In this document: one piece after another, positions 1 through 9,775 of the stretch
Layout: the number at the start of each line of letters is the position of its first letter
Numbering within the stretch: the first letter of the stretch is position 1
Origin: a bacterium
GTDB lineage: Bacteria; SAR324; NAC60-12
DNA length: 17,584 nucleotides
Assembly: GCA_965233585.1 (NCBI GenBank)
Contig: CBDDTI010000646.1
Coordinates: 1 to 17,584 of the forward strand
Reading direction: 5' to 3'
Translations under genes and position numbers: made by a program
The notes under the pieces: model-generated
The model's input: the letters and a program-made list of their open reading frames with translations, nothing else
What the model was told of the DNA's origin: nothing
The model's database searches: none

Positions 1-69
1 TTTATTTGTTTATTTGCAAGCCTGAAAACGAAGCTGTTTTACGAGATGTTTTTAGGTTTTGAATTTGAG
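1..69 (-). repeat. Hypermutated fragment of repeat family B
   Basis: 1-47 aligns without gaps to 11331-11377 (tatttgcaagcctgaaaacgaagctgttttacgaga vs tatctgcaagcttgaaaactaagctattctgcgaga). 9 of 12 mismatches are C->T or G->A. Confidence 0.75.
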
Positions 70-737
70 TTTTAGAATATTTGTATATAGAAAGGGTTTG
101 TATATTTTTTTTTGTATAAATATTTATTTTTAAAAATTATTGTGTCGAAAAATATTTTAAAAAATATATAAATAAATTAAATTAAAATAATTAAAATTTT
201 TATATGAAAAAAAATATATTTATTTATTTAAAAAAGTTATATTTAAAAAATTATTACTTGATTTTAATTATGAAAGGTAGCTCTAGAGGGGCTACTTTGA
301 GTTTTACTTTACGAAGTAAAGGGGAGGTCGGCTATTTTCGTTATCTGATTATTTAGGAAATTGCTAGTTATTTTAGAATCTTCTCTCCCCCCTAACGCCT
401 CCTATACACCCGAAGAGCAAACTCAAAATATTATAATTTATAATAATTTTGATTTTTTCGGATTAAAAAACTATATTTTATTATATGGTGAAATATCCGT
501 AAATACTAGTATTTTTGCTAGGTGTTGGCTAAAAACCACTATAAATACCGTACTTTTTGTTATTAGAGGCAAAAAACATCATAAATACTGTGGTTTTGGG
601 CTTCCGATTCGATTCATTCAATACATTGGTATTTACGGTGTTTTTTACTCCGAGAGCCACTACGGAATCGAGACAAAAAGCTGCAAGGAATACTAACACT
701 AACCCCAATAGCACTACCTCTACTCTACCAATACCAT

Positions 738-930
738 GATCAACAACAACAAGAACAACAACAGGACCAGCAACAATAATAACAGCAACAACAGCAATAA
801 CACCAACAACACCAACAGCAGCAACAACTACAAGAACAATAATAAGAACAACAACCAGAACTACTACAACAACGACAATAATAACAACAACGACGACGAC
901 AACAACGACCAGAACGACAAGAACACGAAT
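738..930 (+). repeat. Imperfect (AAC)n trinucleotide microsatellite
   Basis: Run of aac/aat/gac/agc triplets. It generates the spurious poly-Asn and poly-Cys ORFs. Confidence 0.9.
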
Positions 931-1084
931 AACTGCGGGTGCGAAGGACCAACTTTTTTCTTCGCTAATGGCTCATGAGCAATTGGTGAGTGTGTGTGCG
1001 TCTGCCAGTGTATACTGTACGCAGCCTCGGGATCGAAATGTTCGAGTACGTTGTCGAACCAGCCGGCCCGTGAATAAAAAAAAC

Positions 1085-1190
1085 AAAAACACGAACAAAA
1101 ACCACCACCACTATAACTATAACCACAACCACAATTACAATCATAAGGGCAAACACAACACCAACGCCAATAACCATAACCACAACCAGA
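1085..1190 (+). repeat. Degenerate (AACCAC)n-like simple repeat
   Basis: Units such as aaccac, aactat and aaccat. Confidence 0.65.
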
Positions 1191-1290
1191 GAGAAAATGG
1201 CCGCGTCGCTTTTACCTGCCTCTTTCCTTTATTGTTTCTTCGATTCCTTTCTTGCTGACCTACCTTTCGTATTCCCCCTCTCAAATTTAT

Positions 1291-1780
1291 TAAATTATGT
1301 TTTTTATATTGAATTATAATAATAATACTAATTATATTTAAAAAAATATATATATTATTGTTTTTTTCGAAAAATATATTTTTTTAAAAATAAAAAATAG
1401 TAATTATTATTTAATGTTTTTATATAATAAAAAAAAATATTATAAATTTACCTTTACGATTTTTTTTGAAATTATATTTTTTTGTATTAATTAAAATTTT
1501 TCATAGTTTTTTTAAATTAAAATTAATAGTTTTTAAATAAATTAAATATATTTAATAAATTTTAAATATTTTATTTTTTTTATTATTTTCAAATTTTTTC
1601 CTAAATATGTTTAAAATATATTTTAATAATAGTGTTTTTTTTCGAATAAATTTATTATATAATTATTTATTATTAATAAATATTAAAATTAAAAATTTCA
1701 TCGAAATATTTATTGAAATAAAAAATATTAATTAAAAAAATATATATGCAAAATAATATTACCAACATTGGTAATAAAAT
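1291..1780. other. Extreme AT desert with retained CpG
   Basis: Manual count for 1321-1740: 12 C and 15 G in 420 nt (about 6% GC), yet 4 CpG. Confidence 0.85.
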
Positions 1781-1790
1781 TAAGGCCTAC

Positions 1791-1889
1791 CTGAGTCCAC
1801 CAATCAAATTAATTTCGAGATTCATACCAACGGGCAATGGTTTTCCTCCATTGTGGCGAGATTTCTGCATATGATTGATTTCTTCGAGC
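1791..1889 (-). CDS. Candidate isolated 99-nt exon of an unknown host gene
   Basis: Minus strand reads tactgcag|GCTCGAAGA...TGGACTCAG|gtaggc. Length is a multiple of 3. One frame is open (LEEINHMQKSRHNGGKPLPVGMNLEINLIGGL). The phase-0 frame has a single TAA. It forms a moderate-GC island next to an AT desert. Confidence 0.35.
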
Positions 1890-2366
1890 CTGCAGTAAAT
1901 CAGGATCTTCAGGATTTTTTACCAATATATTTTATGTTGATCAGTGCACGACATTGAATGCCTTTTTTTTGATTTCAAAAACTGATGGAACTTTCCCCAA
2001 AAATATTCTATATTTTCTGAAAAGGTTCCAAGACCTGCGCGTTAGCGTCTGTTCCGCAAGAGCGTGGAGGAATGGGAGTTGTTATTCTTAAAATTGAGAG
2101 AAAAAAAAATAATAATTTTGAAAATGTATTATAGGACGATAAAATAAGTTGTATATAAATAATATTTTACAAGCAAAAAACCTTTTACATTTACAGAACC
2201 TTTTACATACAGACGCTTTTTTGCAGTTACACGCTTTGCACACCTTGTTGTTGTTTGAAGCATACTTTACTGAAGCGATCTCGGGTTAACCCTTCGCCAC
2301 CAATCGCCGTCTTCAAAAAAAACGTAACCCAATAATACCAAGGGCATGCCTGTAGGGCATTGAGCC

Positions 2367-5013
2367 ATGGCCCCATCACATGGGACGCCGGTCGGTGGAG
2401 AGCGGCCGCGGCGGCGGCGTAGCAACTCTCCGGCTGGCGCTGCCGCAGCGGCAGCTGCTGGGCCTCCTGGCTCTGCCATGGAGGTCGATGATGCGGGCCT
2501 GAGGGCTCCTCGGCGGGTCTACTGCCCTCTGCCTTCTTTCTCATGCTCGGATGCACCATGAAGGGGCATGTGGATGCCCACTTCTCAGAAGCACTCCAGG
2601 GGGACCTCCCCGGACGTTGGCTGCAAGCCCAAGGGCGTCAGCGGTGCCCTGTTTGTGGGCTTAACGTGTCCATCCGCCACGGTACTCACCCCACCTTCCG
2701 GTCGTCAGCCCGCGCGGCGGCAGGCCATGGGAGGGCACCGCGTGCTGCTGGCCCGACTTTGCCTAGCTTTGACGAGATCCAAGCTAGTCAGACCCCAACT
2801 CTGCGACACGTCCTGAAAGCAGCCAGACATCTGTGGGGGCAAGCCTTCACTTCACTCGCTGCCTTGCCTCTGTGGTGCACGATAATGATGCAACTGCTTT
2901 GCAAGAATTGTTCATTCTTCCAAGGTCCGTTCTTGATGCACCAAGGCAGGGCGGCTGCCACTACCAGAAGGCGGTGGCCTCCTATACTTAAGATAGGCTG
3001 CGGCGGTGGCAGGCTGGTGAGCGCCAGTCGCTTTGGGACACTCGGGGCAAAGTCCCCGGCCCCTGACGGCAAGACCTTTCTGTGACCCAGCGGCAGGAGA
3101 TGGCCATTAACCTGGCGAGAAAAGGGCACGACAGAAAGGCTTGCGCAGCCCTTCTGTCAACGGGCCTTTGCCCTGACACGCCAGCAACAGCCCAGGCCCT
3201 TTGCAGCTTGCACCCGGCTCACCCTCAGCCGAGTGCCCGCCCTATGCATGATTTGCCTCTTGCACCTGAAGTGGTGTCTGATGCGGTGGCCAAGGCCTTG
3301 CGGTCCTTCCCCGCTGAAACTGCCCTGGACCTTCTGGGTTGCGCGTGCAGCACTTGCGTGAGGCCACTGCAGCTGGAGAAGCTGATGCCCTTTTCCAGCA
3401 CCTGGCCTTTGTGGTTGGGCTGCTTGCTCAGGGCCAGGCTTACCCTGCTGCTGCTGCCGCCTTTGCTGGTGCCAGCCTCCTCGCGCTGCCAAAGCCAAAG
3501 GGCGGTTTACGCGCCATTGCAATTGGTGAGACTTGCGGCGACTCACCGCCAAATGCCTCATGGCACATGTCCGGGCGATGGGCCGTAAGCATGTTTGCCA
3601 GCGCAAGTTGGCGTAGCCGTGCGGACTGGGGTAGAGGCAGCTGTGCATACCACCCGTTCTTGGTCGAGCGGTACGCGCAGCAGGTTGACCAAAATGTTTT
3701 GGACAGTGTCCAGGCCCATTTCCCGGCCCTTTCACGGTGACAACCTGGTGCTTCCAGCACCCTTTGTCACTGTACCATGGTGGGCGGACGCTGACGACAT
3801 CGGCGGCTTGTGTGCAGCAAGGGGATCGGCTGGGCCCCTTCTTGTTTGCTGCAGCAATCCAGCCCTTGGGAGAGCAGTTGCAGGCAACCATGCCCTTCTT
3901 TTTTCTACTTAGATGATGGCGTGGTAGCCGACGATGCCCTTTCAGTTAGCCAGGGTCTCCAAGCCATCCAGCAACCTGCACGGTCAGTGGGCCTCACTTT
4001 GAATTTGGACAAGAGCGAGCTTGTTGATGTTGGGCCAACATCGTCGGCTACACTCACCGCCAATTTCCCCGCACAGCTTCTGGCGGATGCGCATGGCAGC
4101 AGCCGTGTGCTTCGCATCTTTGATTTGCTGATGGCTGCCATTGGCACCCCTGACTTGGTGGCTTGACATACCTGCAGCGGGTGCAAGCACGCAAGCAGAT
4201 TTTGGATGCAATCTGCGTCGTTGGAGGACACAAAAGATCGCCTCCGCTTGTTGCAGGCCTGCGCGGGGCATTGCCGCCTCGTCCAAAGCCCGCGTTGCAA
4301 CCCTCCAGCGGCGCAGCGGTCAGCTTTGCTGCAATTTGATGCTCACATCGGGGCTGGTTTTAGCAGCTTCACCGGCTTGCACCTGAATCCATCTCAATGG
4401 GGACAAGCTTCCTTGGTTTTGGCCACGCAAGGTTATGCTTGCGGGAAACCGCAACATACTGTGGTCAAGACCTTGGCGGCCTTCGATGCGCGAGTGGCAG
4501 GAGGTGTCCCACTTGCCGCCGGGGCTGTGCTCGGGCAAAAGCAAAAAAGTATAACTACCTTGGTGGACTCCGCGGCGTGGGCCCGACAGCTTGCCACCTG
4601 TTTTGCGGCGGGCAAAGCGCTTTTGCACTCAGAGCAGCATCCTGGTGCGCGCGCCGTTCTGGCAACTGTCCCGTATGAAGTTTGCTGGATGGAGCCGGCC
4701 CGGCAGTATTTTTGGCAAAGCTCCGCTTCAGACTGTTTTTGACACTTACTCCCTTCATGCTGGTGCTTGCGCAGCCGGCGGGGAGCGGACTGGTCGACAC
4801 CACGCCGCCGGCGGGGAGCGGACTGGTCGACACCACGCCGTCTAAGAGGTTGTGCTGCCCTACGCAGACCGGGCTCGTTTTGAGCCTGAGCGGGGAAAAC
4901 CCGAAGTTTTGCTTCCGCAGCGGCCTGAAGACAGCCGGCATGAAGGCCTAGCATCTGCAAACAGCTGCTGCGTGCGAAGGGCAAGGGTTCGGATTCAGCC
5001 CATTGTCTTTGAG
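2367..5013 (+). pseudogene. Decayed non-LTR retrotransposon ORF (Zn fingers - reverse transcriptase - Zn knuckle - restriction-like endonuclease), CRE-like clade
   Basis: Motifs appear in order across frameshifts: YCPLPS/HVDAH and CPVCG..HPT zinc-finger remnants (2520-2695); TA[P]GPSGLRVQHL (~3319-3356); PKPKGGLRAIAIGETxRRLTAK (~3489-3555); QVGVAV..G.EAAVH; VQQGDRLGPFLF (from 3812); FYLDDG (YLDD 3906-3917); GLTLNLDKSE; WGQASL..HARLCLR; DTYSLHAGAC..GGERTGRHHAV (4741-4842); HLQTAAACEGQG/VRIQPIVFE (4952-5013). No APE domain is seen. Many frameshifts, stops and deletions. Confidence 0.9.
4774..4839 (+). repeat. Perfect 33-bp in-frame tandem duplication (AGGERTGRHHA x2)
   Basis: gccggcggggagcggactggtcgacaccacgcc at 4774-4806 and 4807-4839. 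Confidence 0.95.
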
Positions 5014-5129
5014 CTCAAAAACACAATGAATGTTATTCCAGTCATTGGTGTCGATGACATTGTTGGTGTGCTCGGAGTACCTTCCATTAGTCCACTAATT
5101 CCCTCGGATTTTTCCGGACCTGTTTTGCA

Positions 5130-5450: not shown

Positions 5451-5699
5451 AAGCAGTCACTTTGGCTTTGCACACAGTTGCTTTTTAATCTCAGGCTGGC
5501 CCATGATCTCGCAATCACAATGAAATCATCTTGGTGTTTGTGCCCTCTCAGCAATTCGACGGAGGGATCAAGTTCACTCCATCAATTTGCTGATGTCGAA
5601 CCTCCGTATATGTGTTGGGGCCACAACAAACCCTCTTACGCACAAATGCCTACAGTCGTACTCACACCCTTTTGAGATCCAACACCAGTTAAAAGGTTT

Positions 5700-6040
5700 T
5701 GCACATCCAACCTCGTTTCTTGCGAAAGGATTGCTCGGGCAAAATAAAATCGCAAATTTAGGTCAATTTTTGATAATCGACCCTCATTTCGTGCGAAAGG
5801 ATTGCTCCGACACAAATATAATAATCGCAATGTACCTCACTCAATTTTATGTATCGACTTTCATTTCGTGGGAAAGGGTTACTCCAGGACAAATAAAATC
5901 ACAAATTTTCCTCTGTTTTTAAAAATAAAATCACAAAATTTCCTCAGTTTTTGACGATCGAAGGGTTTGTTCGGAACAAGTACGATCGCAATTTTACCTC
6001 AATTTTTGTGCATCGACCCTGATTTCGTACGAAAGGGTTA
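5700..6040 (+). repeat. ~70-77 bp degenerate subrepeats (aatcgcaattttacctcaatttt..atcgaccctcatttcgtgcgaaagg)
   Basis: Cores near 5705, 5776, 5853, 5957 (partly deleted) and 6012. Confidence 0.8.
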
Positions 6041-6179
6041 ATGTTTCGTCACTCCTAGCCGGCATCACCCTTAGCCTAAAAAAAGAAAATTAAAGAAGGT
6101 AAGAGAGACAAAAGAGAGAAAGGAAGGAAAAAGAGAAAAGAAAAAGGAAAGAGGAGAGAGAGAGAAAGAGAGATAATGT

Positions 6180-6650
6180 AAGTATTCGAAAAATAAGTGC
6201 GAGAAAATATATACATATAACAATGTAAATATGTTAATATATATAAATATATAAAAAATAAATTAATACTTATAACAATTAAAAAATCCTTCGTTCAAAT
6301 ACTTTCGAGAAATAAAAACAAATATTAAACAATATCATTAATAAATAATAATATATTTCAAATTAAAAAAGCATTATTATAATTATAAAATTAAATTATA
6401 AATTAATATATATTCATTATAGTATTTTGTTTTTTTAAAGTAATATACTATAGTTAATTGTAGTATAATAATATAGTTGTAATTATTATTAATATAATAT
6501 AGTATAAAATAATTTAGTATCGTATTATATAGAATAATAATTATAGTTATACTTATAGTTAGTTAGTAGTATAGTTATAATTAAATTTATAATAAAATAT
6601 AATATAATAAATTAATTAATTTTTATTTATTTTCAATATATAAAATTTCT
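6180..6650. other. AT desert, probably eroded simple-repeat modules of the flanking elements
   Basis: Very low GC. Residual tagt/tagtt periodicity at 6420-6580. Surviving CpGs (attcgaa, ttcgttc, ttcgaga, atcgta). Confidence 0.7.
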
Positions 6651-7201
6651 CCATTTCGTAAAACCACATCTAAATATCCAAACATATTCCAAATCCATCT
6701 ATTTTTTACATTTTTTAATTTAAAATTTATTTCGTACCACAACGACGCGCATTTTATCAACATATCAACTTCCAAAAATAATCTAAAAATAGTCTACTTT
6801 ACCCATTTGGTGTAGTTTGTTTATATATTTTAACTTGCAAAATATATTTCGTATCACAACAGCGTATATTTTTTCGACATCTCAATTTCCAAAAGTACTC
6901 CGAACTAGAATTAAACTTTGTACCACAATGGTGTACAATTTTTCATTTCTCATCTAGCAAAAATACCTCGTACCCGCCGCTTTAACAAACCTACTTTTTT
7001 TTTCGACCCTCCGAAGCCACGGATCATTAGAAAACTAGCTACAGTAAATCGCGACTTTGCTACCTTTTCGCGCGCCTATACCTTCTGCTTCTAACTCTTT
7101 GTCTTCTCTAATCTGCTCTCTTCTTTTCTCTAATTCTTCCCACCTCTGCTTTTTTCATCTGTCCATATTATCGAAAGTTTGACTTTTAAACTTCCTTCAA
7201 T
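6650..7201 (-). mobile_element. Hypermutated terminal fragment of family B (copy A)
   Basis: Colinear with 11900-12442, including the 94-bp subrepeats, cccgccgcttta, tcgcgacttt and the terminal ..aagtttgacttttaaacttccttc. Confidence 0.92.
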
Positions 7202-7869
7202 GAAAGAAAAGGCAAATGTCCGGAGCACAGTACCATACAGTAAACTAAACCAGAACCACACCGAACTTGTCCGATACCCTTCTCCTGCCAGACCCCCGGG
7301 CGGCAAGGGTTAGTAGCTTTATAAATTATATATATTATAAGAATTTATAATATCCAACTTTCGCGAAACAAAAAATCGCGAACTCGGAAAAAAACTTTCG
7401 TGAGGGTTCCGAACAAAACATAAACGGTCTTCACAATTAAAGCTCTTTACCACGACCTTGGGATCGATTACTCTGTATTTTATGTTTTGTTATATTGATA
7501 ATATAATATGTTTAAGGATACTACTATTTTTAGCAATATCGTTCCGGCAATTGTTTTCTAATCCTAATTATTTATATTCAGGATACGAAATCACCTTCAG
7601 AAAAAACACAAAGATATATTTAAATTTTAGCTTTCTTGAAATTAAAAACAAAAAACTATCGTAATCTAAACCTATGCTCTCAATATAATTCCAACGTATT
7701 CCAAACACTGTAGATCCTTTTTGGCGTTCATCATTTGCGGGTATATCTCTATTGAGTATGCTCCTGTATGTCTGGTCAGATTCGTGCTGGGGTCAAAACA
7801 TGGTACATACTTCATGGTCATCCATCCCATGTCATGGGAATGCAAATATAATGGACTCATATTGGGTAA

Positions 7870-7980
7870 TGTGGGTAAAACAATACCATAAACCCACCAT
7901 CCCCCAGTCAGCAACATGTTTATAGGTGGTATGGTTACCATTCCCAGTCATGGCTGGTTTATGGGATTGTTTTACCCACA
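7870..7980. mobile_element. MITE-like element, 111 bp, 25-bp terminal inverted repeats
   Basis: tgtgggtaaaacaataccataaacc (7870-7894) vs ggtttatgggattgttttacccaca (7956-7980): 24/25 complementary. Confidence 0.75.
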
Positions 7981-8298
7981 CAAATCCCTATGAACATGGA
8001 TTGATTGATGACCATCCCAGATGACCGGGCATACTATCCAACTACAAATTGGCTCAGATGACTCTTGGAGTGCCACACATTTAAGACTGGCAGTGACTGG
8101 CACTTCTGACTCAAGGTCTGCAATTTGTCATTAGTGAGTCACTGGGCCAAGTCACATCCTACGAAGTCACAGGACAGATGTGGATGTTTTTTATCATTTG
8201 CCATCCCCCAAATTAAGATAGACCCTGCCAAATAGGGCGTGGGAGACTTAAAAAGGTATGGTTAGATTTGTAAGTTCGAATTCTGATTTCAGGAATAC

Positions 8299-8376
8299 TA
8301 CTGTTTGGTTATTTAACACAGCCATGGGAAATGGATGAAAATGGCTAATTTGTAGATGATTTGTAATGATTTACCT
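8299..8376. repeat. One-armed copy of the 9776-9882 MITE family
   Basis: tttggttatttaacacagccatgggaaat..atttgtagatgattt..tttacct matches 9782-9835. The right arm is absent. Confidence 0.7.
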
Positions 8377-9039
8377 GCTCAATCGTCGCCGCGTTGCTCT
8401 GAGCAATTCTACTCAGAACTAGGGTCAAAAAAAACACAATGGCTTTATCCCATAATCTTCATACAGTATTTTCTTGGTTAAACCTCCATTATCTACAATT
8501 TTTGGAGATTAAATCCTTGCATTGGAGCTACATCACTGGGTTGCCAGTCTACATCTTCATTTTTTAGCACGTTAAAGAGATCATTTTCCACCACTCAGCG
8601 GTCAAAAGACATCTGTATAGTGTCAATTTCCACTGGAAACGCTACAGTAATCGATGGATGGGAGGGAAAAACAATTTTAAACAATATACATACATGGTAC
8701 ATGGTTCAATTGTTTTTTTACCAATAATTTTAGGGGGTGTCCTATACATTTTCCCTTGGCTGGGTGGTCTCATGCTGCGCTGTCCTTCATAGCGCCTTGC
8801 CGCGTGTCCTGCGTGTGAGCAAGAATTCTTCTGTAAACATTTGCGTCTTGGTTTGTGCAGATTAACATCTGAATGTTCAGTGAAACTGCATCTAGAATGA
8901 TATATAAAGTATTCATTCACATCCACATATGGATATGCGTAAGAACAGATGTGCTTTACCATACACATGTGTAATTGATAATCATGCTGGTTTATGGGCA
9001 TGTCACATCACATCCGCCCTAACCACTCGCAAATGGCAC

Positions 9040-9090
9040 CAGGTCAGTTCTTGCTTTCTGCAAAGGATGAACTGCACAAGTGTTGTCTAC
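9040..9090 (-). CDS. Candidate 51-nt micro-exon (VDNTCAVHPLQKARTDL)
   Basis: Minus strand reads tttctcag|GTA...CTG|gtgcca. Phase 0, open. Confidence 0.3.
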
Positions 9091-9775
9091 CTGAGAAAAC
9101 AAACGGTCCAGTCACGGATTCATTTCCTTATCTTCAAACCCGGCAGTTCAACCGGAATGGATTATAAAATCATTGTGCCAGCAAAATTGATTTCAACTAC
9201 TGACACTTATGTGGGAAACACAATAATGAACCCGACACAATTTGCCAATCTTTTCTTCCATTTGGTGGCATAGCAACCTTACCCCCAAAACAGGGCTATT
9301 ATTTTGGGTTATTAAATCATCTCAAACACAAACAATAAAACCGGCAAGTGCCCAAAGCACACAGGAAAATCATCAACAAAGTACTCATCGGGCAAATCAT
9401 TTCAAGTAGAGATGTGGGTCAAAATTCCGCGCCCAAAAATTGTGTAACTATTGACATGCCATTGAATGGTTTATTGATCTTGGAACAGGTTTTGTCTCAA
9501 AATAGAAGGCTGTTGCCACATCCTGGGAGTATACCCCCATTTAAGACCAGTTACAACACGTCTACCCATCACTAGATGTATTCTCAGACTTGAACCCATC
9601 TGAGCACTGTTTAAAACCTGCAACGTCAGTCGATTTAATCCTGGCTGTTGGAGACCGGTTTCCCAGTTCATGCAATGGATAATAATATCAATATAACCCC
9701 CGAACTGATCATCTACAAAAAAAACAGCCGCTGTATTAAATTTTTCCCATAAAATATGCCCATCAACCCCCACAA

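What the first reader, a model, noticed from the sequence alone, without database searches (positions are those of the whole stretch)
6650..7201. RIP-like directional C->T / G->A hypermutation of a repeat copy in an apparently non-fungal genome
Seen: copy A and pristine copy B lie in the same window. 6840-6903 vs 11962-12025 (64 nt, ungapped) has 13 mismatches: 6 G->A, 6 C->T, 1 G->C, and no A->G or T->C. 7153-7201 vs 12394-12442 has 5 mismatches, all G->A or C->T. Both transition types on one strand mean cytosines on both strands were hit. Erosion increases leftwards until homology dissolves into an AT desert. Known: this is the signature of fungal repeat-induced point mutation (RIP). Inference: an analogous cytosine-directed defence acts on repeats in this probably dinoflagellate genome. 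I do not know of a described mechanism there, but I cannot check the literature.
Basis: partly seen in the sequence, partly recalled or inferred. Interest (0 to 1): 0.85.

Follow-up and report, generated by a model that had tools for sequence, protein, structure and literature searches.

The report
C-to-T mutation halos in dinoflagellate repeats
A repeat copy in what looks like a coral-symbiont dinoflagellate genome has lost many cytosines to thymine on both strands because it lies beside an extremely AT-rich patch, a position-dependent hypermutation that resembles fungal RIP in outcome but not in its rules.

Summary
Against a 22-copy family consensus, copy A has 33 C>T/G>A changes, 6 reverse transitions and 13 transversions. 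Two other copies are equally biased, at independent sites.

The window is not bacterial. It lies in a 12 Mb 'prokaryote' bin that also holds about 6 Mb of coral-like contigs and about 1.16 Mb (42 contigs) of Symbiodiniaceae-like DNA.

In those 42 contigs, to-AT transitions per C/G site fall from 0.24 inside AT deserts to 0.16 within 200 bp and 0.04 beyond 2 kb. Reverse transitions stay near 0.04.

Three tested rules of RIP are not met:
- There is no dinucleotide preference: CpA 0.234, CpC 0.223, CpG 0.230, CpT 0.287.
- Duplication does not trigger it. A 21-unit tandem array and 61 young linked duplicate pairs are unbiased, and copy B 5 kb away is pristine.
- GC also falls near deserts in DNA with no repeat match in this sample.

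Best reading: position-dependent, context-free cytosine loss around AT-rich islands, probably from local non-CG methylation or exposed DNA followed by deamination. I found no report of this in dinoflagellates.

The parts
6657..7201 (+). Copy A: a hypermutated copy of the 3' half of repeat family B, covering about three 94-bp internal units plus the unique 3' end with its terminal hairpin motif.
   Evidence: Aligns with 11896-12442. 33 to-AT vs 6 to-GC transitions against the consensus. Gradient of 0.43 falling to 0.16-0.18 to-AT per C/G site, left to right. G>A 46/84 vs C>T 30/144.
6157..6736 (.). AT desert (sliding 100-bp GC of 20% or less). Its edges are the most eroded ends of the two flanking repeat copies. 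The core 6264-6656 has no specific homologue.
   Evidence: Left edge aligns with a C230 unit up to 6263. Right edge is copy A. The core gives only compositional matches at 58-67% identity in many registers.
5763..6263 (+). Eroded copy of part of the 1.37-kb tandem-repeat unit of contig C230. Erosion increases rightwards into the desert.
   Evidence: Transition-tolerant alignment. Ordinary BLAST of 5763-6204 vs C230: 45 to-AT vs 9 to-GC. 39 vs 7 in the longest HSP.
11350..12445 (+). Copy B: a near-consensus, full-length (about 1.1 kb) member of family B, with three 94-bp internal tandem units at 11903-12185.
   Evidence: 1 C>T, 0 G>A, 2 T>C, 2 A>G and 8 tv vs the consensus over 330 sites. Longest HSP over this region is symmetric, 36 vs 35.
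395..1123 (+). A second eroded repeat copy of a different family, lying next to the first desert.
   Evidence: Vs C114:6053-6858: 53 to-AT vs 16 to-GC, 27 tv. Window 266-906 vs C287: 82 vs 13.
31..312 (.). AT desert.
   Evidence: GC 0.17 in window 1-300.
1248..1797 (.). AT desert, with GC down to 0.07.
2250..5100 (.). GC-rich island (58-67% GC) between two deserts. It is not eroded and has no copy elsewhere in the bin. It shows that the halo is short-range.
   Evidence: No HSP. No Pfam family for its 7 ORFs.

Best explanation
Copy A is a real, individually mutated copy of a roughly 1.1-kb non-autonomous repeat of a Symbiodiniaceae-type dinoflagellate. Its contig was binned by mistake with a bacterium from a coral sample.

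Copy A sits in the roughly 1-kb 'halo' of an AT desert. In such halos, cytosines on both strands have turned into thymines 4-6 times more often than elsewhere in the same contigs. This happens whatever the neighbouring base, and reverse transitions are not raised.

What decides whether a copy is hit is where it lies (distance to an AT-rich island), not that it is repeated. So this is position-dependent cytosine loss, not RIP.

Inferred mechanism (not shown): AT-rich islands mark or nucleate a local state in which cytosines are deaminated faster or repaired worse. The state could be silent chromatin with dense non-CG 5-methylcytosine, which is reported to be targeted to silent transposons in Symbiodinium and Amphidinium. 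It could also be easily unwound DNA. Each conversion makes the flank more AT-rich, so the island grows outwards and inactivates whatever elements lie there.
For: Shown by calls:
- Direction and excess.
- Independent sites in three hypermutated copies. Shared sites were 3, 8 and 4 against 5.1, 4.7 and 4.0 expected.
- Distance decay over all repeat alignments in the 42 contigs, with no selection for bias. To-AT per C/G site is 0.236 inside deserts, 0.157-0.164 at 0-200 bp, 0.098 at 300-500 bp, 0.07 at 1-1.5 kb and 0.037-0.042 beyond 2 kb. To-GC per A/T site is 0.022-0.046 throughout. Transversions run from 0.08 down to 0.03.
- The gradient is seen within the single copy A.
- In the window, all three repeat segments touching deserts are eroded (53:16, 39:7, 60:8). 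Those 3.7 kb or more away are symmetric (36:35, 19:19, 35:31).
- Flat context in the 43 dinoflagellate-like regions. The same pipeline shows a twofold CpG preference in 45 coral-like regions, which serves as an internal control.
- 20 of 43 hypermutated regions lie within 500 bp of a desert, against 21% of the 196 control regions that have a desert on their contig. Mann-Whitney p = 0.0013.
- GC falls towards deserts equally in repeat-covered DNA and DNA with no repeat hit: 0.355 and 0.333 at 0-100 bp, 0.44 beyond 2 kb.
- No trigger by duplication.

From papers:
- Section 8 of PMC5890265: in Symbiodinium, CH methylation is low overall but targeted to transposable elements and mostly absent from transcribed copies.
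- Passages of PMC11572971: in Amphidinium, mCHG and mCHH correlate negatively with transposon transcription and overlap with 5hmU on repeats.
Against: - No methylation, chromatin or read data for this locus, so the mechanism is pure inference.
- Section 8 of PMC5890265 says CH methylation is biased to the 3' ends of elements, whereas copy A is most eroded at its 5' side.
- The origin of the desert cores is mostly unknown. Of 130 deserts, 84 have no alignable partner, 34 align best to other AT-rich sequence, 9 are intermediate and only 3 align to a GC-normal partner.
- At least one desert (C615:14675-15646) is an AT-rich satellite whose changes are shared by all units. Some deserts may therefore be natively AT-rich or amplified after mutation.
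- Deserts are defined by low GC, so part of the GC gradient is built into the definition.
- Transversions also rise about 2.5-fold near deserts, so age or general damage contributes.
- The transversions in the 43 regions lean to AT as well: 554 to-AT vs 311 to-GC.
- The bin holds only contigs near 40% GC.
- The strand asymmetry in copy A (G>A 55% vs C>T 21% of sites, p = 2.5e-7) is not explained by this model.
Confidence: 0.45

Rival explanations
1. A true RIP analogue: a homology-sensing defence that mutates cytosines in duplicated DNA, possibly during a rare sexual phase. The unmutated copies would be those that arose since the last episode.
For: - Directional C>T and G>A on both strands of repeat copies from several families.
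- Independent sites per copy.
- Copy A and the window's three deserts pass the two classical composition indices: 1.02/0.91, 1.06/0.68, 0.98/1.0 and 1.13/0.72. Copy B gives 0.43/1.24. The thresholds of 0.89 and 1.03 are recalled, not from a call.
Against: - No CpA or any dinucleotide preference. [quoted passage not shown]
- 21 tandem 1.37-kb units at 96-100% identity show 76 to-AT vs 133 to-GC changes.
- 61 linked duplicate pairs of at least 1 kb and 95% identity have ts 1125 vs tv 848.
- Copy B, 5 kb away on the same contig, is untouched.
- Load follows distance to deserts, and DNA with no repeat hit shows the same GC fall.
- The pooled 130 deserts fail both indices, at 0.81 and 1.76.
- A passage of PMC9998398 reports no DNMT4/RID-type enzyme outside diatoms in the MMETSP transcriptomes.
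Confidence: 0.1
2. Ordinary neutral decay: copy A and its like are simply old copies in a genome whose mutation is AT-biased.
For: - Most hypermutated regions are 65-80% identical to their partners.
- Transversions are also higher near deserts.
- Copy A has more transversions (13) than most copies.
Against: - Ordinary copies show no AT bias against their consensus: 46 to-AT vs 64 to-GC in the bin, and 196 vs 182 in 33 copies from another metagenome.
- C547:14175-14521 has only 5 transversions but 25 to-AT and 1 to-GC transitions.
- One insertion has one age, yet copy A shows a 2.5-fold gradient along 500 bp.
- Background DNA in the same contigs stays at about 44% GC.
Confidence: 0.15
3. Structure-driven spontaneous deamination: AT-rich DNA unwinds easily, exposing flanking cytosines as single strands. 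Repair of the products is weak in a genome that uses 5-hydroxymethyluracil as a normal base. No dedicated chromatin mark or enzyme is involved.
For: - Context-free spectrum.
- Short-range decay from AT islands.
- Effect also seen in DNA with no repeat hit.
- Strand rate asymmetry at 11 of 43 regions (p < 0.001).
- 5hmU abundance in dinoflagellates (passages of PMC11572971).
Against: - No direct evidence.
- The repair argument is my own inference.
- It does not explain why a GC-rich island 450 bp from a desert is intact.
Confidence: 0.15
4. Enzymatic editing by an AID/APOBEC-like deaminase, for example of retroelement cDNA.
For: - Marked strand difference in copy A (55% vs 21%) and at 11 of 43 regions.
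- The discussion of PMC5890265 (passage) raises APOBEC-like mechanisms only as a speculation.
Against: - C>T and G>A are interleaved at random in copy A (42 runs vs 37.3 expected, z = 1.1), not in strand-coordinated clusters.
- No TC, CC or WRC-type preference. 5' context rates are ApC 0.234, CpC 0.197, GpC 0.289, TpC 0.258. TCA, TCC and CCC are the least mutated trinucleotides (which pools the dinoflagellate-like and coral-like regions).
- The gradient runs across element boundaries into flanks, which editing before insertion cannot produce.
Confidence: 0.05
5. Artefact: mis-assembly, or systematic base-calling error on heavily modified dinoflagellate DNA.
For: - The bin comes from long reads. 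This is inferred from a 29-kb tandem-array contig and megabase bacterial contigs.
Against: - Large bacterial contigs have 0.82-0.92 ORF cover, so base accuracy is high.
- CpGs, the heavily methylated sites in Symbiodinium (section 8 of PMC5890265), are not preferentially changed.
- Changes come together with transversions and indels, as in real divergence.
- 7 of 80 loci from another public metagenome assembly also carry deserts of at least 200 bp at GC below 20% next to family B copies.
- 11 of 19 listed runs from 7 studies hold half or more of the sampled words of 5600-9600.
Confidence: 0.08

Closest known systems
Repeat-induced point mutation (RIP) of Neurospora and other Pezizomycotina
   Same: The outcome is the same. 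There are dense C:G to T:A transitions on both strands of transposon-like repeat copies and independent hits per copy. Very AT-rich tracts result. Copy A and the window's deserts pass the TpA/ApT and (CpA+TpG)/(ApC+GpT) indices.
   Different: No CpA preference. No dependence on duplication. Load set by distance to an AT island, with DNA lacking a repeat hit showing the same GC fall. The host is not a fungus. The machinery is unknown.
Methylation-driven decay of silenced transposons (5mC deamination in all contexts, as in plant heterochromatin) and AT-rich DNA as a signal for heterochromatin in Neurospora
   Same: Cytosine loss in every context within silent, repeat-rich DNA. AT-rich DNA associated with the affected state. 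Non-CG methylation is reported on silent transposons in dinoflagellates (PMC5890265 section 8; PMC11572971 passages).
   Different: The decay here is steep and short-range (about 1 kb) around small islands and reaches 7-20% GC. There is no methylation evidence for these loci. The comparison with plants and Neurospora chromatin rests on my own knowledge, not on a call.
GC dips at convergent gene-array (Hi-C domain) boundaries of Symbiodinium microadriaticum (PMC8110479)
   Same: Local minima of GC content in a Symbiodiniaceae genome, with no published mechanism in the passages read.
   Different: Those are averaged dips from about 51% to 46% (about 10% at convergent sites), measured around 10-kb boundary regions, at a few hundred sites per genome. 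Here there are 130 tracts of 200-1449 bp at GC of 20% or less in 1.16 Mb of repeat-rich contigs. Any relation between the two was not tested.
AID/APOBEC editing of retroelements in vertebrates
   Same: Cytosine-directed hypermutation of mobile elements, with a strand difference at some loci.
   Different: No strand-coordinated clusters, no enzyme-like sequence preference, and the effect crosses element borders.

Membership tests
RIP (fungal repeat-induced point mutation) | Excess of C:G to T:A transitions in repeated DNA, polarised against a family consensus | tested here: met
   Copy A 33 vs 6, C547:14175-14521 25 vs 1, C477:26189-26498 23 vs 4. The 13 pooled ordinary copies give 46 vs 64.
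RIP (fungal repeat-induced point mutation) | Fixed dinucleotide preference (CpA in the fungi where RIP is established; passages of PMC12543289) | tested here: not met
   43 regions: CpA 626/2673 = 0.234, CpC 0.223, CpG 0.230, CpT 0.287.
RIP (fungal repeat-induced point mutation) | Triggered by duplication: long, similar, especially linked or tandem copies are mutated | tested here: not met
   21 tandem 1.37-kb units at 96-100% identity without bias. 61 linked pairs of at least 1 kb and 95% identity with ts/tv of 1.3. Copy B 5 kb away is pristine. 33 of 33 analysable copies from another metagenome are symmetric; these were selected for an intact 3' motif.
RIP (fungal repeat-induced point mutation) | Composition indices TpA/ApT high and (CpA+TpG)/(ApC+GpT) low (thresholds recalled) | tested here: inconclusive
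   Copy A 1.02/0.91 and the three window deserts pass. Copy B gives 0.43/1.24. The pooled 130 deserts fail at 0.81/1.76. Any context-free C>T process also moves these indices.
RIP (fungal repeat-induced point mutation) | RID/DNMT4 or DIM-2 type methyltransferase; premeiotic timing | not testable with these tools
   Only 1.16 Mb of the host genome is held. PF00145 gave 5 weak hits, none on the 42 contigs. A passage of PMC9998398 reports no DNMT4 outside diatoms in MMETSP.
AID/APOBEC-type editing | Strand-coordinated clusters of one change type | tested here: not met
   Copy A: 30 C>T and 46 G>A in 42 runs vs 37.3 expected, z = 1.1. Per-site rates do differ between strands.
AID/APOBEC-type editing | Enzyme-like 5' context preference (TC, CC or WRC; recalled) | tested here: not met
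   ApC 0.234, CpC 0.197, GpC 0.289, TpC 0.258.
5-methyl-CpG deamination (animal type) | Preference for CpG | tested here: not met
   CpG 0.230 vs 0.223-0.287 for the other contexts in the dinoflagellate-like contigs. The coral-like contigs in the same bin do show it, at CpG 0.234 vs 0.106-0.150.
All-context methylation-driven decay of silent repeats | C>T in every context within silent repeat-rich DNA | tested here: met
   for context. The silent state itself was not tested.
All-context methylation-driven decay of silent repeats | Non-CG 5mC present at the affected tracts | not testable with these tools
   No methylome for this organism is at hand. The general pattern in Symbiodinium comes from PMC5890265 section 8.
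GC dips at dinoflagellate Hi-C domain boundaries | Located where co-oriented gene blocks converge | not testable with these tools
   No gene models or Hi-C data for these contigs. 130 deserts in 1.16 Mb is far denser than the 468 boundaries reported for a whole genome (passage of PMC8110479).

The most novel reading that the evidence does not exclude
Symbiodiniaceae, and perhaps dinoflagellates generally, have an active cytosine-directed genome defence that does not sense homology. AT-rich islands nucleate a chromatin or DNA-modification state in which a methyltransferase-deaminase pathway, or an unknown deaminase, converts every nearby cytosine. This permanently kills transposon copies and makes the island spread. 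It would be a mechanistically new, non-fungal counterpart of RIP. It could also be the origin of the unexplained GC dips at dinoflagellate chromosome-domain boundaries.
Probability: 0.15. Interest if true: 0.85.

Novelty: new variant of a known kind. Interest (0 to 1): 0.6.

Why it matters
Dinoflagellate genomes are huge and full of repeats. They have almost no nucleosomal chromatin and carry unusual DNA bases. How they restrain transposons is an open question.

A local regime that erases cytosines around AT-rich islands would be a new way of permanently inactivating mobile DNA. It would be a source of compositional structure in these chromosomes. It would also give directly testable predictions:
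- non-CG 5mC or 5hmU peaks at the islands;
- an excess of C>T polymorphism in the halos;
- a relation to the GC dips at domain boundaries.

The finding also shows that RIP-index scans can flag non-RIP processes. A practical point: a 'prokaryote' reference genome with 2% estimated contamination holds about 7-8 Mb of coral and dinoflagellate DNA.

Tried and rejected
- **rRNA search.** Rfam SSU and LSU searches of the bin gave tool errors and were not repeated.
- **Spliced leader.** This is uninformative for 1.16 Mb.
- **Pfam.** 13 window ORFs and 5 long ORFs from CpG-free contigs gave 0 families. My impression that 2250-5100 is RT-like rests on a recalled motif only. RVT_1 does not hit the window.
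- **Protein atlas.** No usable hit.
- **Exact 54-nt stretch of copy A.** 0 matches in metagenome contigs and in genome contigs. The family motif has 0 matches in genome contigs.
- **Same locus elsewhere.** No metagenome locus is at least 95% identical over at least 400 bp to the bin, so the locus was not found in a second assembly.
- **Purine/pyrimidine-collapsed BLAST** to trace desert cores to GC-normal repeats:
  - It worked for copy A (471 bits vs 133 or less for the reversed control).
  - It was marginal for 6175-6354 (148 vs 102).
  - Over all 130 deserts the reversed-sequence null was too heavy-tailed. Only 5 deserts exceeded it, and 91 of 130 beat their own control.
  - The best case turned out to be a satellite.
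- **Sensitive BLAST of the window's desert cores.** Only compositional matches.
- **Replication-origin or break-resection model.** The strand bias does not flip across deserts: same sign at 11 of 14 informative deserts.
- **Earlier notes of this scan.** Nothing by words or by sequence.
- **Dropped rows.** 47 of 80 metagenome loci had less than 250 bp upstream of the motif and were left out. HSPs under 200 bp were left out.
Full report
**1. The observation**

- 6840-6903 vs 11962-12025 has 13 mismatches: 6 G>A, 6 C>T and 1 G>C.
- 7153-7201 vs 12394-12442 has 5 mismatches: 4 G>A and 1 C>T.
- The full homology is 6657-7201 against 11896-12442.

The repeat ('family B') is about 1.1 kb long. It has three 94-bp internal units and a conserved 3' end. 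It occurs on at least 21 contigs of the assembly.

I aligned 22 copies of the 3' 355 bp and polarised changes against their consensus.
- Copy A has 14 C>T + 19 G>A, against 3 + 3 reverse transitions and 13 transversions.
- Copy B is near consensus: 1+0 vs 2+2, with 8 transversions.

Two further copies are as biased.
- C547:14175-14521 has 25 to-AT, 1 to-GC and 5 transversions.
- C477:26189-26498 has 23, 4 and 13.
- Thirteen ordinary copies pooled give 46 to-AT, 64 to-GC and 74 transversions.
- Fisher p for direction is 4e-6, 1e-7 and 6e-5.

The three biased copies share no more mutated sites than chance: 3, 8 and 4 shared, against 5.1, 4.7 and 4.0 expected. They are therefore not an AT-rich subfamily that transposed.

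**2. What genome this is**

The window is contig C646 of a 12.0 Mb, 747-contig 'prokaryote' genome, rated 92% complete and 2% contaminated. Earlier notes of this scan call the bacterium SAR324; I did not test that.

The bin is a mixture.
- Only 43 contigs (3.9 Mb) have bacterial ORF density of 0.7 or more. 646 contigs (7.0 Mb) have less than 0.5.
- Repeat sharing splits the low-density contigs.
  - About 6 Mb is homogeneous: GC 39%, CpG o/e 0.85-0.94. It carries actin-family exons separated by roughly 1.9-kb GT-AG introns.
  - A separate community of 42 contigs (1.16 Mb), called 'X' here, includes the window. It has uneven GC and many AT deserts.
- Contig C13 of X ends in a roughly 530-bp TTTAGGG array.
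- A LINE on X contig C449 has endonuclease, RT and a third long ORF. Its RT ORF finds 56 longer relatives.
  - Every relative that names an organism, or carries a gene id I recognise, is from Symbiodiniaceae: 'Symbiodinium sp. CCMP2592', 'Cladocopium goreaui', and the Skav... and symbB... ids. That these ids mean Fugacium kawagutii and Breviolum minutum is recalled.
  - One relative carries a DNA-methylase domain, like the DNMT-retrotransposons of PMC5890265.
- Fourteen of the 19 listed runs that hold parts of window 5600-9600 are labelled coral metagenome.

It is not proven, because no marker gene was found in 1.16 Mb.

**3. How widespread the bias is, and what governs it**

An all-against-all BLAST of the low-ORF contigs gave 56,013 HSPs of at least 200 bp. 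Of these, 29,245 had at least 20 transitions. In 326 the subject was AT-shifted with asymmetry above 0.6, and these collapse to 88 regions. 43 regions lie in X and 45 outside it.

*Context.*
- In X the chance that a cytosine was converted is the same whatever follows it: CpA 0.234, CpC 0.223, CpG 0.230, CpT 0.287.
- The 45 regions outside X show the expected CpG preference: 0.234 against 0.106-0.150. The method can therefore detect context when it exists.

*Position.* I defined 130 AT deserts in X as tracts of at least 200 bp with sliding 100-bp GC of 20% or less. They cover 47.7 kb without overlaps. I then used every repeat alignment in X without selecting for bias and took the best alignment per base.

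| Distance from desert | To-AT transitions per C/G site |
|---|---|
| inside | 0.236 |
| 0-200 bp | 0.157-0.164 |
| 200-300 bp | 0.134 |
| 300-500 bp | 0.098 |
| 0.5-1.5 kb | 0.07-0.08 |
| beyond 2 kb | 0.037-0.042 |

Over the same range, to-GC transitions per A/T site stay at 0.022-0.046. Transversions fall from 0.080 to 0.028-0.034.

Further evidence for position:
- Within copy A the load falls from 0.43 to 0.16-0.18 over 500 bp, moving away from the desert.
- On the other side of the same desert, 5763-6263 is a copy of the C230 tandem-repeat unit. It erodes in the opposite direction, into the desert.
- In the window, all three repeat segments that touch deserts are biased (53:16, 39:7, 60:8). 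All those 3.7 kb or more away are symmetric (36:35, 19:19, 35:31).
- GC falls towards deserts in the same way in DNA with and without a repeat match in this sample. 'Unique' here only means unique within 1.16 Mb.

**4. Not triggered by duplication**

- Contig C230 is 21 tandem units of 1.37 kb at 96-100% identity. It has GC 42% and 76 to-AT against 133 to-GC changes.
- Sixty-one linked duplicate pairs of at least 1 kb and 95% identity, on 14 X contigs, have 1125 transitions to 848 transversions. Across identity classes of 85% and above, ts/tv is 1.0-1.2.
- An independent public metagenome yielded 80 loci with the family's 3' motif.
  - 33 had at least 250 bp of element and were analysed. All were ordinary, with 196 to-AT, 182 to-GC and 354 transversions in total.
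  - The search pattern required a nearly intact 40-mer, so it would miss heavily mutated copies.
  - 7 of the 80 loci carry a desert next to the element.

**5. Other properties**

- In copy A the two change types are interleaved at random: 42 runs against 37.3 expected.
- Their rates differ between strands: G>A at 46 of 84 sites, C>T at 30 of 144, p = 2.5e-7.
- 11 of 43 regions show such a strand difference at p < 0.001.
- The sign of the difference is the same on both sides of a desert at 11 of 14 informative deserts. This argues against a replication-origin or break-resection origin.
- Classical RIP indices are passed by copy A and the window's deserts but failed by the pooled deserts. They cannot discriminate here.
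- Desert cores are heterogeneous. 84 of 130 have no partner, 34 match other AT-rich sequence, 9 are intermediate and 3 match GC-normal sequence.
- One 0.9-kb desert is an AT-rich version of a 16-bp satellite, with the same changes in every unit.
- The core of the window's desert (6264-6656) has only compositional matches.

What is demonstrably derived from normal repeats by transitions is therefore the halos and the desert edges. This has not been shown for every desert core.

**6. Mechanism**

*Shown:*
- a position-dependent, context-free, directional loss of cytosine on both strands around AT-rich islands;
- a range of about 1 kb;
- independence from duplication.

*Inferred:* a local state of the DNA raises deamination or lowers its repair.

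The candidate I favour is dense non-CG cytosine methylation of silent repeat DNA.
- In Symbiodinium, CG sites are methylated by default at about 70%.
- CH methylation is rare overall (about 1%) but targeted to transposable elements, and most transcribed copies lack it (PMC5890265, section 8 read).
- In Amphidinium, mCHG and mCHH correlate negatively with transposon transcription and overlap 5hmU on repeats (PMC11572971, passages).

Deamination of 5mC in all contexts would give the flat spectrum. AT enrichment could reinforce the state.

Easy unwinding of AT-rich DNA, combined with weak repair in a genome that tolerates 5hmU, is an alternative I cannot separate from this.

Points against my reading:
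- the published 3'-end bias of CH methylation does not fit copy A;
- transversions are also raised near deserts;
- the strand asymmetry is unexplained;
- the sample is biased, because the bin selected contigs near 40% GC.

**7. Comparison with known systems, and novelty**

Passages of PMC12543289 describe RIP as follows:
- it makes C>T changes in a CpA context;
- it acts before meiosis and uses Rid1.

The first two features were tested here and not met. The machinery and timing cannot be tested. AID/APOBEC editing and CpG deamination also fail their defining tests (see the membership table).

The nearest published observation in these organisms is the GC dip at convergent Hi-C domain boundaries (PMC8110479, passages; also stated in the review PMC11453091). 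No mutational explanation appears in the passages I read.

Literature searches:

| Terms | Papers found |
|---|---|
| 'repeat-induced point mutation' + 'dinoflagellate' | 5 (4 listed); one read in passages, the rest judged from titles and abstracts; none reports such a signature |
| 'Symbiodiniaceae' + 'hypermutation' | 0 |
| 'RIP-like' + 'non-fungal' | 4, all on fungi |
| 'Symbiodinium', 'AT-rich', 'transposable elements', 'C-to-T' (at least 3 of 4) | 47, of which 12 listed; none relevant |
| 'dinoflagellate', 'AT-rich regions', 'genome assembly', 'repeats' | 2, both irrelevant |

The library lacks most subscription journals, and I opened no supplements. Prior description cannot be excluded.

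**8. Verdict**

I class it as a new variant of a known kind, namely cytosine-loss hypermutation of silent repeat DNA. The unusual features are the strictly local, island-centred geometry and the absence of any sequence context.

Noticed in passing
whole assembly G000 (window = C646): A 'prokaryote' genome rated 92% complete and 2% contaminated is a three-way mixture. About 3.9 Mb is bacterial (43 contigs with ORF cover of 0.7 or more). About 6 Mb is coral-like, with GT-AG introns and 113 RVT_1 matches across the bin, mostly on the small low-ORF contigs. About 1.16 Mb is Symbiodiniaceae-like.
   Followed up: partly
G000 contigs C352, C102, C313, C138, C499 and C615:1-26000: Tens of kilobases are almost free of CpG (o/e 0.02-0.09), with TpG and CpA in excess (1.15-1.49). 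They are packed with long intronless multi-copy ORFs of up to 999 aa that have no Pfam family. They are interrupted by inserts with normal CpG (for example C352:18000-22000, o/e 0.7). On C615 they are physically joined to ordinary repeat-rich sequence. This is a second, quite different regime of cytosine loss in the same genome, or an endogenous viral or giant mobile element.
   Followed up: partly
G000 contig C230 (29,245 bp): The whole contig is 21 tandem units of about 1.37 kb at 96-100% identity, each with internal sub-repeats. A degraded copy of part of the unit lies at window 5763-6263.
   Followed up: yes
G000 contig C13:52767-53299: A terminal array of TTTAGGG units with a few variant units, preceded by a GC-rich subtelomeric direct repeat. 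It is a likely chromosome end of the dinoflagellate-like genome.
   Followed up: partly
G000 C615:14675-15646 vs C463:1704-2685: A 0.9-kb AT desert (GC 17%) is a satellite that matches a GC-normal 16-bp satellite (GC 46%) with 150 C>T and 98 G>A differences. The changes recur in every unit, so conversion came before amplification or homogenisation. CpA sites were converted least there (36 of 94).
   Followed up: yes
window 12500-15341: Three different satellites lie in a row. A 16-bp unit occurs x48 (12500-13262). A 313-bp unit occurs x3.3 at 99% identity (13265-14293). A 7-bp AGTGTGA unit occurs x100 (14638-15341) with extreme GC skew (+0.87). All have symmetric substitution spectra against their relatives.
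   Followed up: partly
window 2250-5100: A 58-67% GC island lies between two deserts. It has many overlapping ORFs on both strands, no copy elsewhere in the bin and no Pfam match. It looked RT-like to me from a recalled motif only.
   Followed up: partly
window 6657-7201 and 10 other regions of the 42 contigs: Per-site conversion differs strongly between the two strands (copy A: G>A 55%, C>T 21%). The sign is the same on both flanks of a desert at 11 of 14 deserts. This would fit a transcription- or replication-direction effect. It is unexplained.
   Followed up: partly
G000 C201:7300-8600 (locus L044): Exon-like pieces of a cytosine-5 DNA methyltransferase (weak PF00145 match, 33.9 bits summed) lie on a low-ORF contig outside the 42-contig set. 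Which organism it belongs to was not determined.
   Followed up: no
loci L052-L131 (public metagenome contigs): Most contigs of that assembly end about 75 bp beyond the family B 3' motif, so the repeat breaks that assembly. 7 of the 80 loci have a desert of at least 200 bp at GC below 20% just downstream of the element. This may also mean that the element inserts into AT-rich DNA.
   Followed up: no
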